From: an uncultured delta proteobacterium
Lineage (GTDB): Bacteria; Desulfobacterota; Binatia; Binatales; Binataceae
Direction: 5' to 3'
DNA length: 64,000 nt
NCBI GenBank assembly: GCA_963724765.1
Contig: CAVRVY010000003.1
Location: 480,001-544,000, forward strand
A model generated the notes under the pieces. That model ran no database searches. It worked only from the letters and a program-made list of their open reading frames with translations, and was not told where the DNA came from. Below, piece after piece: positions 15,964-36,962 of this stretch. The position numbers and the translations under genes were made by a program. Numbering within the stretch: the stretch's first letter is position 1; every line of letters begins with the position of its first letter.

Positions 15964-16038
15964 TTATGAAAAAAAGCCCGCGGGTATCCGCGGGCCTTCA
16001 ACCATGTTTCTGGATGCTGCTATTTCGTGCAGCGCCAT
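15964..16038 (-). CDS. Candidate leaderless leader peptide MALHEIAASRNMVEGPRIPAGFFS
   Basis: ATG 5 nt after the -10 box; ORF spans the terminator; stop TAA overlaps the guaB SD (TAAGGAG). Confidence 0.5.
   Translation of the reverse strand: MALHEIAASRNMVEGPRIPAGFFS
15969..15995 (-). terminator. Intrinsic terminator inside the guaB leader
   Basis: GCCCGCGG-ATAC-CCGCGGGC followed by U7, ending about 18 nt before the guaB ATG. Confidence 0.85.
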
Positions 16039-16199: not shown

Positions 16200-17120
16200 T
16201 CACCGTTCGTCGTTCGGTTCCTTCCACTCTTGCGGATAGAGCAGCAGCAGATCGCCGCCGAGGTTGCGCACCAAAAAGCGCTGGACCTCCGCCACCGCGC
16301 GCTCCAGTGCGCGGCCGCCGATAAGCCAATGGCCGCGGCCACGCACCACGCGAATTGTCGCACCGGCGCGCGCGGCGAAAGCGTTCATCTGATCGAGCGG
16401 CGCAAACGGATCGGAATCACCCGCCACGATCAGCCGCGGTACGGCGCGCCCCGTCTCGGCAAGCTTGGTCCGGCCGAACTTGATGCCGTAGAAATTGGTT
16501 GCGCCGCGCACGACTTCGAGCGCCGCGCATGCGTCGTCGGCCACCAGAGCCTTCGTTAGCGCTTCGCGCTGGAACGGCTCGGCGTCGGCCAGCAGCTGAA
16601 AGAGCACGGCGCCGCGCGGCGGCTTGAGTGCGCGGCCAAACAATCGCGCCGGCCAGTTCGCCGCGCCCGTCACCAGCGGCGATCGACACCCGGGAAGCAT
16701 CGGCGCCAGCGCGACCGCCGCCCTGACCTGCGGAAGCTCAGCCGCGTTGAGCGCTAGCAATCCGCCCAACCCATGACCGACGACGATTACGTCGCGCCCG
16801 AGCGCCGCTAAACCCTCGGCCAGTAGCGCGGCGAGACCGTCGAAGCCGGCCGCGCTCGGAACCGAACTCTTGCCAGTGCTCTTGCCCGCGCTTTTGCTCG
16901 CGCTCGAATTCGATGGGGGTGCGTCGATCCGCGCTGCTTGCGCCGCCGCGCGGAGATCGGGCGCATAGACCTCCCATCCGATACTCGCGAAATATCCGCG
17001 CGCGACCGCGAGATGGCGCGCGGTGGTGAAAAGCTCCGGCAGCAGGACCAGCGGCCAGGCGAACTTCAGCGGTTCGGGCCGCTCGCATTCGGCCGGGATT
17101 CGGCCAAGCCGCGTCTCCAT
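16200..17120 (-). CDS. Alpha/beta-hydrolase fold protein (nucleophile Ser apparently replaced by Gly)
   Basis: VGHGLGG in place of GHSxGG; AGDSD and GHW motifs. Confidence 0.7.
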   Translation of the reverse strand: METRLGRIPAECERPEPLKFAWPLVLLPELFTTARHLAVARGYFASIGWEVYAPDLRAAAQAARIDAPPSNSSASKSAGKSTGKSSVPSAAGFDGLAALLAEGLAALGRDVIVVGHGLGGLLALNAAELPQVRAAVALAPMLPGCRSPLVTGAANWPARLFGRALKPPRGAVLFQLLADAEPFQREALTKALVADDACAALEVVRGATNFYGIKFGRTKLAETGRAVPRLIVAGDSDPFAPLDQMNAFAARAGATIRVVRGRGHWLIGGRALERAVAEVQRFLVRNLGGDLLLLYPQEWKEPNDER

Positions 17121-17242
17121 CGCAACTACGTTGCGCCACGCGCATCGCGCGCCGCAAGCGATGCGCCGCGTCGTGGGTTCGCGTGAATTAGACCGCGCGA
17201 CGATTCGGCGTGCGACACTCCACGATGCGCCGGGCGATGGGT

Positions 17243-17288
17243 CACGACGCGGATGCGGAGCTTCGCACGACGCGGATGCGGAGCTTCG
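17243..17288. repeat. Perfect 23-nt tandem duplication
   Basis: cacgacgcggatgcggagcttcg x2. Confidence 0.9.
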
Positions 17289-17344
17289 AAAGACAGCGCG
17301 TTGATTAAGCGTCGCGCTCGCGAGCGAGCGCAGATGGCGCAGAG

Positions 17345-17374
17345 AAAAAGAGGGCCCCTTTTCAGGGGCCCTCT
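17345..17374 (-). terminator. Intrinsic terminator of the small basic ORF transcript
   Basis: AGAGGGCCCCT-GAAA-AGGGGCCCTCT followed by a U-tract on the - strand. Confidence 0.88.
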
Positions 17375-17465
17375 CGCGGTACGGGGTTATTACACCCCGG
17401 CTTATCGCAGCAGCATGCCCGGCATCTTGGCCAGCCCCCGGTTTCCCGGAGGGAAACTTACGTCG

Positions 17466-17561
17466 TTACTTCTTCTTTTTCTTGCCGGCTTTCTTTTTCA
17501 TATTCGTCTTTAACTTAGATTTGGATTTTGTAGCGGAACTTCTTTTCTTCTTCACTGGCAT
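17466..17561 (-). CDS. 31-aa Lys-rich small protein MPVKKKRSSATKSKSKLKTNMKKKAGKKKKK
   Basis: Perfect SD TAAGGAGGT 4 nt before ATG; own promoter and terminator; below the ORF-track cutoff. Confidence 0.8.
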   Translation of the reverse strand: MPVKKKRSSATKSKSKLKTNMKKKAGKKKKK

Positions 17562-17652
17562 AGACACCTCCTTAACAGTTGCTGCTGCCGGACAAGCTCC
17601 GAAACCTTTAAAGCCATCTGGCTGAGCCGTGATAGCCTCGCCTTCAGGCTGG

Positions 17653-17681
17653 ATTATAGAAACCTGTTATTCAAAAATCAA
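17653..17681 (-). promoter_or_regulatory. Sigma70 promoter TTGATT-17-TATAAT
   Basis: Consensus -10, near-consensus -35, AT-rich upstream element. Confidence 0.8.
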
Positions 17682-17816
17682 GCAGAACGCGAGTAGTTTA
17701 TAAAGAAATTTTAAAATCGGAAGAATCCTTGCCCCGCCTCATCTTTACCGGATTAAAATGGCGTTCAGTCATAAGCCCGCTTGAAGTTCGACGCAAGCCT
17801 TTTTACCATGCTGCTT

Positions 17817-18182
17817 GTGAGCCGGTTAAGCCTGTACCTGTGCCGCGAGTGGCTGACCCTGGTCCTGGTCGCCGCCTGCGCCTTGCTCGCGGTGGACTCT
17901 GTCGTCGGGCCGCTGGGCGTGCGGGACCTGGTGGTGCTGCGCGAGCGGCGCGCACAACTCGAAGGCGTGCACAAGGAATTACTCAAGTCCAACGCGGCGT
18001 TGAAGCTCAAGCTCGGCCGGCTGGGCAACGACGACCGCTATCTCGAACGCCGCATCCGCGAGCAACTCGGCTACGTGCGCCCAGACGAACTGGTCTATCG
18101 CTTTTCCACCGAGGCTTCTTCCGAAGGTTCTTCTGACGCTTCATCACGAGCTTCATCCCAGGCTTCATCGGACGATCATTAG
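17817..18182 (+). CDS. ftsB: Septum formation initiator FtsB/DivIC family
   Basis: Single TM, GxxG, coiled coil, ERRIREQLGYVRPDE; GTG 7 nt after TTGAAG-17-TACCAT (leaderless-like). Confidence 0.8.
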   Translation: MSRLSLYLCREWLTLVLVAACALLAVDSVVGPLGVRDLVVLRERRAQLEGVHKELLKSNAALKLKLGRLGNDDRYLERRIREQLGYVRPDELVYRFSTEASSEGSSDASSRASSQASSDDH

Positions 18183-36850: not shown

Positions 36851-36962
36851 GCCTTATCCAGAGCGGCGGAGGGACTGGCCCGATGATGCCGCAGCAACCG
36901 GCCCACCAAGGGTGCTGGTGCTAACTCCAACGAAGCCCGAAATAGGCTTCGGTAGATAAGGC
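36851..36962 (+). promoter_or_regulatory. SAM-I (S-box) riboswitch
   Basis: CTTATCCAGAG..GGAGGGACTGGCCC.ATGA..CC.GCAACC..GGTGCTAACTCC..AGATAAG; P1 GCCTTATC/GATAAGGC. Confidence 0.95.

What the first reader, a model, noticed from the sequence alone, without database searches (positions are those of the whole stretch)
17345..17681. Lys-rich microprotein ORF looped out of a long-range RNA helix
Seen (- strand): a self-contained ~300-nt unit with TTGATT-17-TATAAT, an ~85-nt leader, a perfect SD, a 31-aa ORF (16 Lys, no acidic residue), an ~90-nt trailer and a terminator. Leader GCUUGUC-CG-GCAGCAGCA (17597-17580) pairs with trailer UGCUGCUGC-GAUAAGC (17415-17400). This gives 16 bp with one G-U pair and a 2-nt bulge, enclosing 164 nt including SD and ORF. 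The trailer also has CCUCCGG-GAAA-CCGGGGG and GGGGU/ACCCC hairpins. Inference: an RNase III-type processing or stabilising stem, or a dual-function structured RNA whose basic peptide binds nucleic acid (protamine/histone-tail-like or ribosome-associated).
Basis: partly seen in the sequence, partly recalled or inferred. Interest (0 to 1): 0.75.

Follow-up and report, generated by a model that had tools for sequence, protein, structure and literature searches.

The report
Polylysine microprotein gene, self-pairing mRNA
This is a real, single-copy gene for a tiny, almost all-lysine peptide, kept across several families of uncultured soil bacteria, whose short mRNA pairs its front end with its tail; what the peptide does is still unknown.

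Summary
Window 17345-17681 (- strand) has a near-consensus promoter, an ~85-nt leader, a perfect SD, a 31-codon ORF (15 Lys + 1 Arg, not 16 Lys), a ~90-nt trailer and a strong terminator.

The unit is single-copy, so it is not a MITE. It lies divergent from ftsB. With family-specific peptide profiles it was found in 43 of 49 sampled genomes of its own family (f1), 13 of 25 of f9 (22 of 25 by DNA), 16 of 19 of f10, and sporadically in four other families. It was not found outside the class.

The ORF is coding. Third-codon positions vary twice as much as first or second. Lys columns use only AAG/AAA. Length changes are whole codons.

The leader/trailer helix is supported by covariation: f1 has 95% of cells paired and 6 of 11 pairs with double changes. 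f9/f10 rebuild the helix with a different sequence (14 bp).

In f1 only, a second helix pairs the spacer and start codon with the trailer.

Best reading: a strongly transcribed microprotein mRNA closed by 5'/3'-UTR pairing, as in hbs and icaR. The peptide is probably a polyanion binder. Both functions are inferred, not shown.

The parts
17697..17716 (-). AT-rich box TTTTAAAATTTCTTTATAAA, about 15 nt upstream of the -35. Possibly a UP-like element, or part of the divergent ftsB promoter.
   Evidence: Nearly invariant across f1 in the MAFFT alignment. f9, f10, f11 and f2 have an equivalent A/T run plus TTTCCAAAA at the same place. Its function is inferred.
17653..17681 (-). Sigma-70-type promoter TTGATT-17-TATAAT, followed by a GC-rich stretch after the -10.
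   Evidence: 10 of 12 matches; the only site in 1 kb. Both hexamers and part of the spacer (ATAAC..GTTTC) are conserved in the 36 f1 loci. The start site near 17646 is inferred, not mapped.
17599..17649 (-). Structured 5' leader (stem-loops at the 5' end).
   Evidence: MFE fold. In other genera of the family a 5' hairpin is kept with different sequence, e.g. GGTGG/CCACC, GGATGG/CCATCC, GATGAAGG/CCTTCATC (read). This was not tested formally.
17580..17597 (-). 5' arm of the closing helix, GCUUGUC-CG-GCAGCAGCA.
   Evidence: Consensus structure. Covariation.
17567..17573 (-). Shine-Dalgarno AAGGAGG. It stays mostly unpaired in an internal loop.
   Evidence: GGAGG is conserved in f1. Mean unpaired probability of positions -13..-6 is 0.71 in the full-length fold.
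17555..17568 (-). 5' strand of the inner helix: last GG of the SD, the spacer, G of the AUG and the next 4 nt.
   Evidence: columns 100-115; same geometry in 33 of 36 f1 loci, about -20 kcal/mol, and 28 of 36 beat 95% of shuffled initiation regions; unpaired probability falls from 0.41 (nascent) to 0.22 (full length).
17466..17561 (-). ORF of 31 codons plus stop: MPVKKKRSSATKSKSKLKTNMKKKAGKKKKK.
   Evidence: Summed entropy by codon position 1/2/3 is 17.0/18.7/37.2. Lys columns hold AAG 254, AAA 126 and no AAC/AAT. ORF lengths of 30-35 aa differ by whole codons.
17435..17453 (-). Trailer hairpin P4, CCCUCCGG-GAAA-CCGGGGG.
   Evidence: pairs at columns 264-269/281-286, with 3 to 9 sequences each keeping the pair through changes on both sides.
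17421..17434 (-). 3' strand of the inner helix, CUGGC-CA-AGAUGCC.
   Evidence: GGCUGGC and GAUGCC are almost invariant in f1. One-sided consistent changes occur (G-U to A-U in 6 sequences, U-G to U-A in 2). U-A changes to C-G in L049/L050 (read).
17400..17415 (-). 3' arm of the closing helix, UGCUGCUGC-GAUAAGC.
17382..17399 (-). Hairpin P5, CGGGGU...ACCCCG, directly after the 3' arm.
   Evidence: columns 327-332/346-351, with 7 and 9 compensatory sequences at two pairs. f9 and f10 have an equivalent hairpin (GGGCCC.../AGAGCCC...) at the same position.
17343..17375 (-). Intrinsic terminator: 12-bp stem, GAAA-type loop, U run.
   Evidence: The hairpin forms in 34 of 34 testable f1 loci even with the leader arm and ORF masked, so no antiterminator alternative is seen.

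Best explanation
This is a monocistronic, strongly promoted gene for a 19-35 aa polycationic microprotein (31 aa here). Its ~300-nt mRNA is closed into a loop by base-pairing between its 5' leader and its 3' trailer.

Shown by computation. The ORF carries a protein-coding substitution pattern. The closing helix is kept by compensatory changes within family f1. Families f9, f10, f11 and f2 have an equivalent helix of different sequence at the orthologous locus (ftsB divergent upstream, an alpha/beta hydrolase downstream). In f1 a second helix pairs the SD-AUG spacer and start codon with the trailer, while the SD core stays open.

Inferred. The closing helix, the 5' hairpin and the terminator protect a very short mRNA, which few ribosomes can cover, from ribonucleases. 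This is what the 14-bp 5'/3'-UTR helix does for B. subtilis hbs mRNA. The f1-specific inner helix lowers or conditions initiation on the finished transcript, as the icaR 3'-UTR does. On that reading most translation would occur on the nascent RNA, or after the helix is opened or cut.

The peptide is nearly pure K/A/S/P, like a histone H1 tail. It most likely acts as a soluble polycation on DNA, RNA, ribosomes or polyphosphate.
For: Gene reality.
- Single copy in the genome.
- By DNA: 16 of 16 same-genus genomes and 7 of 8 other f1 genera.
- By broad f1 profile: 43 of 49 f1 genomes, one match each.
- All 5 of 5 initially 'negative' f1 genomes tested hold a diverged copy beside ftsB.
- Codon-position entropy 17.0/18.7/37.2. 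Lys columns AAG 254, AAA 126, AAC/AAT 0. Lengths 30-35 aa in whole codons.
- SD GGAGG is conserved in the f1 loci.
- Only 4 hits among 1.84 billion representative proteins, all the same family.

Helix.
- Consensus folds.
- A1, 25 long-range pairs: 97.3% paired, 5 pairs with double changes, 1 of 500 shuffles reaches this; slid controls are 27-52% paired.
- A3, outer helix: 95.3% paired, 6 of 11 pairs and 18 cells with double changes, 0 of 500 shuffles; slid controls 18-61%.
- f9: 14-bp helix, 95.4% paired, 4 pairs with double changes; slid controls 28-53%.
- f10 has the same helix. The f11 locus L115 carries three compensatory substitutions, GUGCCUGUG/CACAGGCAC (read directly).

Inner helix: 33 of 36 f1 loci. 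Start-region accessibility falls from 0.41 to 0.22.

Synteny: ftsB plus hydrolase in f9, hydrolase in f10.

Expression hint: contigs 80-95% alike in RNA libraries of 4 studies cover only 17371-17598, inside the unit.

Precedents: abstracts of PMC5737220 and PMC3868564.
Against: No experiment bears on the half-life, translation or binding of this RNA or peptide.

The thermodynamic test is not discriminating: 67% of trailer-shuffled controls also loop the ORF out.

Much of the helix is invariant, so covariation rests on a modest number of events in related genomes. The tool's own note says related sequences can beat every shuffle without any structure.

The start-codon helix is absent or weak in 3 of 36 f1 loci (L040, L051, L053). 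It is not above chance in f9 (0 of 17) or f10 and others (0 of 13). Translational occlusion therefore cannot be the common function.

The metatranscriptome evidence is contigs only, from relatives. DNA carry-over cannot be excluded, and no RNA ends are mapped.

The peptide has no match in Pfam or NCBIfam. Its role is argued from composition alone.
Confidence: 0.6

Rival explanations
1. The peptide is a lineage-specific small ribosomal protein or ribosome-associated factor (in the manner of bTHX, bS22 or bL37, names recalled). The conserved mRNA fold would then be its autoregulatory binding site.
For: The gene is tiny, very basic and single-copy, and occurs in nearly every genome of the family. 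It has a near-consensus promoter with AT-rich upstream DNA and a GC-rich stretch after the -10. That promoter layout is typical of growth-rate-controlled genes (recalled). The UTRs are structured and conserved.
Against: No NCBIfam or Pfam ribosomal model matches. What is conserved between families is mostly composition (K/A/S/P), with only a short SK..KKKA core. Ribosomal proteins with fixed rRNA contacts usually keep specific residues. The helix sequence differs between f1 and f9/f10, which does not fit one conserved protein-binding site.
Confidence: 0.15
2. This is a type I toxin-like mRNA. The full-length transcript would be kept translationally inert by a 5'-3' long-distance interaction and activated by 3' trimming, as in hok or aapA.
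For: A small ORF lies inside a 5'-3' long-distance helix, with part of the initiation region occluded in f1. This architecture is described for aapA/IsoA and hok (PMC6733600, passages read).
Against: The peptide has no hydrophobic segment at all. The gene is single-copy at a fixed syntenic site across families, not patchy or multicopy. No promoter-like site lies on the opposite strand in 17000-18000. The SD core is open rather than sequestered. f9 and f10 show no occlusion of the initiation region.
Confidence: 0.04
3. The unit is a lysine-sensing leader peptide and attenuator. Ribosome stalling on the 15 Lys codons would control read-through of the terminator into the downstream alpha/beta hydrolase gene.
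For: There is a run of one amino acid's codons, a terminator downstream, and a hydrolase gene in the same orientation kept in f1 (most genera), f9 and f10.
Against: The terminator hairpin forms in 34 of 34 testable loci even when the leader arm and ORF are masked, so there is no alternative antiterminator. The downstream gene is replaced by an FAD-type oxidoreductase in L049, L050 and L052 while the unit is unchanged. The hydrolase has no evident link to lysine. The peptide's non-Lys positions and N-terminus are conserved.
Confidence: 0.04
4. The unit is a non-coding or dual-function sRNA. Its (AAG)n loop would be displayed as a protein-binding platform (for example Hfq distal-face A-R-N repeats, motif recalled), and the ORF would be incidental.
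For: About 95 nt of A-rich single strand is held in a closed loop by conserved helices. AAG/AAA repeats fit an A-R-N pattern.
Against: An A-R-N constraint would allow any third base, yet the 388 codons in Lys columns include no AAC or AAT. SD, ATG and stop are conserved, and all length changes are whole codons.
Confidence: 0.07
5. The long helix is mainly an RNase III processing site. Cleavage would trim both UTRs to release a short mature mRNA.
For: The outer helix (16 bp) and inner helix (13 bp) stack around an internal loop. icaR 5'/3' pairing creates an RNase III substrate (PMC3868564, abstract).
Against: Neither helix is a continuous ~20-bp duplex. f9 and f10 have only a 12-14-bp helix. 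No ends are mapped. Metatranscriptome contigs run across both arms without a break at them (records 6, 13, 7, 11), though contigs cannot show ends.
Confidence: 0.1

Closest known systems
B. subtilis hbs mRNA (14-bp 5'/3'-UTR interaction; Braun, Durand, Condon 2017, PMC5737220; abstract read)
   Same: It is a short, strongly expressed mRNA for a small basic nucleoid protein. [quoted passage not shown] Our helices are 16 bp (f1) and 14 bp (f9).
   Different: The encoded protein is unrelated: HU is a ~90-aa folded protein, ours is a 19-35-aa low-complexity peptide. The organism and ribonuclease set differ. In f1 the trailer additionally pairs with the start-codon region. Nothing has been tested experimentally here.
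S. aureus icaR mRNA (3'-UTR pairs with the SD region; Ruiz de los Mozos et al. 2013, PMC3868564; abstract read)
   Same: The 3'-UTR of an mRNA pairs with its own translation initiation region, a fold predicted to hinder initiation and to make a duplex.
   Different: In icaR the SD itself is paired through a UCCCC motif. Here the SD core stays open and the spacer and AUG are paired, and only in f1. RNase III cleavage is unknown. The ORF is ten times shorter.
Type I toxin mRNAs with a 5'-3' long-distance interaction (hok, aapA/IsoA; PMC6733600; passages read)
   Same: A tiny ORF is enclosed by pairing of the two mRNA ends, and the fold is conserved among relatives.
   Different: The peptide is not hydrophobic. 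No antisense partner is seen. The locus is single-copy, syntenic and vertically inherited. The SD is not sequestered.
Bacterial histone H1-like lysine-rich proteins (AlgP, Hc1/Hc2, DdbA; seen only in the search listing: PMC9239181, PMC2848022, PMC3643593)
   Same: K/A/P/S-rich low-complexity composition (KKKAPAKKKAAKKKK in f9). Such tails bind DNA or polyphosphate.
   Different: Those are proteins of 100-350 aa, with repeats or extra domains. This is a free-standing peptide the size of one tail. There is no detectable homology.

Membership tests
mRNAs regulated by pairing of their own 5' and 3' UTRs (hbs / icaR kind) | A helix between the leader and the 3' UTR of the same transcript, conserved among relatives. 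| tested here: met
   f1; f9. 95-97% of cells are paired against 18-61% in slid controls, and 4-6 pairs carry double changes.
mRNAs regulated by pairing of their own 5' and 3' UTRs (hbs / icaR kind) | The pairing covers the translation initiation region (icaR type). | tested here: inconclusive
   In f1 the spacer and AUG are paired in 33 of 36 loci while the SD core stays open. In f9 and f10 pairing is not above chance (0 of 17 and 0 of 13).
mRNAs regulated by pairing of their own 5' and 3' UTRs (hbs / icaR kind) | The pairing changes mRNA stability, translation or RNase cleavage. | not testable with these tools
   This needs half-life, reporter and cleavage assays.
Type I toxin-antitoxin | A small hydrophobic, membrane-active toxin peptide. 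| tested here: not met
   The peptide has 15 Lys, 1 Arg and no hydrophobic stretch. All homologues are likewise.
Type I toxin-antitoxin | A cis-encoded antisense RNA. | tested here: inconclusive
   No promoter-like site lies on the + strand in 17000-18000. No strand-specific reads are available.
Type I toxin-antitoxin | Patchy or multicopy distribution. | tested here: not met
   One copy per genome at a fixed locus.
Leader-peptide transcription attenuator | A terminator that competes with an alternative antiterminator fold set by ribosome position. | tested here: not met
   The terminator forms in 34 of 34 loci with the leader arm and ORF masked, and in 34 of 34 with the trailer alone.
Leader-peptide transcription attenuator | A downstream operon related to the sensed amino acid. 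| tested here: not met
   The downstream gene is an alpha/beta hydrolase, replaced by an oxidoreductase in some genera.
MITE / terminal inverted repeats | Many copies in the genome. | tested here: not met
   1 match in 5.4 Mb.
Any Rfam family | A score reaching the family threshold. | tested here: not met
   Nothing in 17345-17681, even at E <= 1. The whole window at gathering threshold gives only a SAM riboswitch elsewhere.
Known small ribosomal proteins / any Pfam or NCBIfam family | A profile match. | tested here: not met
   0 families at E <= 1 in both libraries.
Known small ribosomal proteins / any Pfam or NCBIfam family | Physical presence in ribosomes. | not testable with these tools
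   This needs purified ribosomes from a member of the class.

The most novel reading that the evidence does not exclude
These uncultured soil and peat bacteria make, from a dedicated and very strong promoter, a free-standing 'histone-H1-tail' peptide of about 25-35 residues. It would be a bacterial protamine-like polycation that condenses or coats DNA, RNA, ribosomes or polyphosphate. Its own closed-loop mRNA displays ~95 nt of (AAG)n single strand between conserved helices. That mRNA would be the peptide's feedback target: excess peptide binds the RNA and locks the start-codon helix.
Probability: 0.25. Interest if true: 0.75.

Novelty: new variant of a known kind. Interest (0 to 1): 0.55.

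Why it matters
Microproteins under 50 aa are mostly missed by annotation. This one is among the shortest and most extreme in composition. Even so, it is single-copy, kept in nearly every sampled genome of its family, and held at one locus across several families of an uncultured lineage, which argues for a housekeeping role.

Its mRNA gives a comparative, covariation-backed case of 5'/3'-UTR pairing in bacteria. That mechanism is so far documented by a few single-gene studies (hbs, icaR) and by type I toxins. Here two different helix sequences serve the same architecture at orthologous loci.

The locus offers a compact model of about 300 nt for testing how very short mRNAs are stabilised and translated. 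It also offers a candidate polycationic peptide for nucleoid, ribosome or polyphosphate biology.

Tried and rejected
MITE or inverted-repeat element: rejected, single copy. The repeat finder reported no inverted repeat of 14 nt or more without gaps, because the arms are interrupted by the 2-nt bulge.

Rfam: no family. Pfam and NCBIfam: no family for the peptide. ESM Atlas: it holds the identical sequence, and the best look-alikes are unnamed clusters at 0.83-0.87, below the level the tool calls a lead.

Antisense ORF (window + strand 17482-17625, Phe-rich, 47 aa): rejected. The opposite strand of a poly-Lys ORF is always open. The open frame switches between close relatives (FFF frame in L001, LLL frame in L002) and has no conserved start.

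Thermodynamic 'looping-out' as evidence: rejected as uninformative.

Lys attenuator: no antiterminator.

Initiation-region/trailer pairing as a universal feature: rejected, f1 only.

Peptide profiles are family-specific and insensitive. The f1 profile A2 found only 16 of 49 f1 genomes and 0 of 251 others, and 0 of 400 in the phylum sample. The f9 profile A6 found 0 of 49 f1 genomes. Absences outside f1, f9 and f10 are therefore weak. In 5 other-family genomes inspected beside ftsB, only G032 (f9) had the gene. G029 and G027 have enolase next to ftsB instead.

The search for related loci confirmed only 7 of 155 pattern hits. It served mainly to show that the record titles read 'uncultured delta proteobacterium' MAGs.

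Metatranscriptome flanks without cover are not evidence of transcript ends.

Literature. No paper in the searched library holds any of four motif strings of the peptides. The search 'lysine-rich / small protein / ribosome-associated / bacteria' gave nothing relevant. The ScvA search gave one proteomics paper, not read. Supplementary files were not consulted.

L007's peptide differs in the middle through a -2/+2 pair of frame shifts in A runs, which I take as an assembly error. It was left out of the codon analysis (35 of 36 used).

L036 (unpublished genome G234) was left out of all alignments.
Full report
1. What is there.

On the minus strand of window 17345-17681 the sequence shows the following:
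- TTGATT-17-TATAAT at 17681-17653. This is the only promoter-like site within 1 kb.
- A leader of about 85 nt.
- SD AAGGAGG at 17573-17567.
- ATG at 17561.
- A 31-codon ORF, MPVKKKRSSATKSKSKLKTNMKKKAGKKKKK, with stop at 17468-17466.
- A trailer of about 90 nt with two hairpins.
- A 12-bp terminator stem at 17375-17348 followed by a T run.

The peptide has 15 Lys plus 1 Arg, not 16 Lys.

The MFE fold (-114 kcal/mol, z = -4.0) contains this helix and a second one. In the second, GGUGUCU..GCCAG (end of the SD, spacer, G of the AUG and the next 4 nt; 17568-17555) pairs with CUGGC..AGAUGCC of the trailer (17434-17421).

No Rfam family matches, even at E <= 1. No Pfam or NCBIfam family matches the peptide.

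The neighbours are a DivIC/FtsB gene (divergent, 17781-18182) and an alpha/beta hydrolase (downstream, 17120-16200).

2. Not a repeat, and conserved.

The 337-nt unit occurs once in the 5.4-Mb genome. By blastn it is 85-92% identical in 15 of the 16 genomes of the same genus (the sixteenth, G012, gives 81% over a partial match) and recognisable in 7 of 8 other genera of the family. It was not found in 16 genomes of other families.

All 24 loci keep an SD and a 30-32-codon Lys-rich ORF. In 23 of them the tail MKKKAGKKKKK is invariant. The exception is L007, with a -2/+2 frame disturbance in A runs, probably an assembly error.

A profile of these peptides found only 16 of 49 family genomes. However, all 5 of 5 'negative' genomes that I inspected beside ftsB do carry a diverged copy, e.g. 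MPVKKKPGTKAAKSKPKLKSTMAKKKATKKPTKKK. A broader profile then found 43 of 49 family genomes, one match per genome, against 1 weak partial match in 251 genomes of other families.

Against 1.84 billion representative proteins the profile has 4 hits, all the same peptide with mis-called starts.

3. It is coding.

Over 35 distinct CDS (L007 left out):
- Summed column entropy is 17.0, 18.7 and 37.2 for codon positions 1, 2 and 3.
- In columns that are at least 90% Lys, the codons are AAG 254, AAA 126, AGA 3, ACC 3, GCA 2. AAC and AAT never occur. An RNA-level A-R-N constraint would allow them.
- ORF lengths (30 to 35 aa) differ by whole codons.

The Phe-rich ORF on the opposite strand (17482-17625) shares its wobble positions with the Lys ORF, so the entropy argument alone cannot exclude it. 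It is nevertheless not conserved: the open antisense frame switches between close relatives and has no conserved start. Promoter, SD and terminator all point to the minus strand.

4. The helix.

Thermodynamics is not enough. With only the trailer shuffled, 67% of 360 controls still give 10 or more pairs across the ORF, against 34 of 36 real sequences. Comparative data decide.
- RNAalifold on 24 and on 29 sequences returns the leader/trailer helix.
- For the 25 long-range pairs on A1, 97.3% of cells pair, against 27-52% when partners are slid. Five pairs carry changes on both sides, matched by 1 of 500 shuffles.
- On the wider alignment A3, the 11 outer pairs are 95.3% paired (slid 18-61%). 6 of 11 pairs and 18 cells have double changes, matched by 0 of 500 shuffles. 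Examples: U-A to C-G in 8 sequences at one pair, and A-U to G-C in 5 at another.
- The trailer hairpins P4 and P5 also covary.
- The inner helix has the same geometry, about -20 kcal/mol, in 33 of 36 family loci. 28 of 36 beat 95% of shuffled initiation regions. Its changes are mostly one-sided and consistent. L049 and L050 show U-A to C-G.
- In partition-function folds the SD core stays open (0.71 unpaired). The spacer, AUG and next 4 nt drop from 0.41 unpaired on the nascent RNA to 0.22 on the full transcript.

5. Beyond the family.

Upstream of ftsB in a genome of another family (f9, G032) lies MAAKKKTVSKAKKKAPAKKKAAKKKK, with the same layout. By DNA, 22 of 25 f9 genomes match. Their peptides are 19-30 aa.

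An f9 profile finds f9 13 of 25, f10 16 of 19, f2 1 of 8, f7 1 of 20, f11 1 of 17, f13 1 of 24 and f1 0 of 49. This shows how family-specific such short profiles are. It finds nothing in the roughly 386 genomes of other classes in the phylum sample.

Synteny is kept. ftsB is divergent and the alpha/beta hydrolase lies downstream in f9, and the hydrolase lies downstream in f10.

The f9 consensus fold has a 14-bp leader/trailer helix, UCUCGCCUGRGA with UCYCAGGCGAGA, around the SD and ORF. It is 95.4% paired (slid 28-53%), with 4 pairs carrying double changes. f10 has the same helix. The f11 locus has GUGCCUGUG/CACAGGCAC, three compensatory substitutions.

So the architecture is shared while the helix sequence differs from f1. 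That architecture is: strong promoter with an AT-rich upstream box, structured leader, strong SD, Lys-rich ORF, closing helix, small hairpin, terminator.

The pairing of the initiation region with the trailer is not shared. It is not above chance in 0 of 17 f9 loci and 0 of 13 f10 and other loci.

6. Expression.

Six metatranscriptome runs hold a few words of the stretch. Four of them, from four studies, were laid. Their contigs are 80-95% alike (so from relatives), 53-215 nt long, with word depth up to about 100. They cover only 17371-17598, inside the predicted transcript, and nothing in the flanks.

This is presence in RNA libraries. It is not proof of transcription, and it gives no RNA ends.

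7. Mechanism.

The closest precedent is B. subtilis hbs mRNA. It is also a short, strongly translated message for a small basic nucleoid protein, and a 14-bp 5'/3'-UTR helix modulates RNase Y access (PMC5737220, abstract). I infer that the closing helix, the 5' hairpin and the terminator stabilise an mRNA too short to be shielded by ribosome traffic.

In f1 the extra helix resembles icaR, where 3'-UTR pairing with the initiation region blocks initiation and creates an RNase III substrate (PMC3868564, abstract). Here the SD is left open and the start codon is hidden. The finished RNA should therefore be translated less than the nascent one, or only after opening.

Rivals:
- The type I toxin long-distance interaction (PMC6733600, passages) is architecturally similar. 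It does not fit a non-hydrophobic peptide, a single-copy syntenic locus, the lack of an antisense promoter, or an open SD.
- A lysine attenuator is unlikely. The terminator forms in 34 of 34 loci whatever is masked, and the downstream gene is not constant.
- An r-protein role cannot be excluded, but what is conserved is composition rather than specific residues.

The peptide's K/A/S/P make-up is that of histone H1-like tails, as in AlgP, Hc2 and DdbA (listing only). From this I infer a soluble polycation acting on DNA, RNA or polyphosphate. That step is inference from composition only.

8. Novelty and verdict.

I found no family, name or paper for the peptide or the RNA. The kind of mechanism is known from a few single cases. 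This is a new, comparatively supported variant attached to an unannotated microprotein family of an uncultured lineage ('uncultured delta proteobacterium' MAGs by record titles).

Confidence is high (about 0.85-0.9) that this is a real coding gene with a conserved closing helix. It is moderate (about 0.5) for the stabilising or translation-tuning role, and lower (about 0.4-0.5) for the polyanion-binding role.

Noticed in passing
window 36851-36962 (+): SAM riboswitch (RF00162), 94 bits against a gathering score of 44.4. It is the only Rfam match at gathering threshold in the window.
   Followed up: no
window 17243-17288: A perfect tandem duplication of a 23-nt unit lies between the terminator of the microprotein gene and the hydrolase gene. 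It is absent from same-genus relatives, where this spacer is shorter.
   Followed up: partly
window 17751-17775 (between the AT box and the ftsB start): A sequence block, minus-strand CTTATGACTGAACGCCATTTTAATC, is conserved across f1 and recognisable in f9 (GAACGACATTCTAAGG). On the + strand it contains a TAAAAT/TAGAAT -10-like hexamer ahead of ftsB, so it may be the ftsB promoter or 5' UTR.
   Followed up: no
L074-L092 (family f9), trailer about 40-60 nt after the stop: An invariant 12-mer, GCUAGGCACGUA, sits in the 3' trailer of all 17 f9 loci. It has no covarying partner found and does not pair with the initiation region. Unexplained.
   Followed up: partly
L074-L133 (families f9, f10), first ~40 nt of the leader: The 5' leader is a G/U-rich run of GGUGG-like repeats (e.g. 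GGTGTGGTGGTGGGGTTGAGTGG). It could form a G-quadruplex or be a protein-binding tract. f1 has no equivalent.
   Followed up: no
L007 (G002), ORF: A 2-nt deletion and a 2-nt insertion in A-rich runs put the middle of the peptide in another frame (MPVKEKKFSYKIQTEVKDEYDQKKAGKKKKK). This is probably a homopolymer error of the assembly rather than biology.
   Followed up: partly
window 17482-17625 (+): A 47-codon Phe-rich ORF lies antisense to the Lys ORF. It is an expected by-product of AAG/AAA repeats and is not conserved in frame among relatives.
   Followed up: yes
window 15969-16014 (-): A terminator-like hairpin after guaB gives weak sub-threshold Rfam hits (OmrA-B, Trp and Leu leaders, E 0.18-0.66). 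The hits are driven only by the stem and U run.
   Followed up: no
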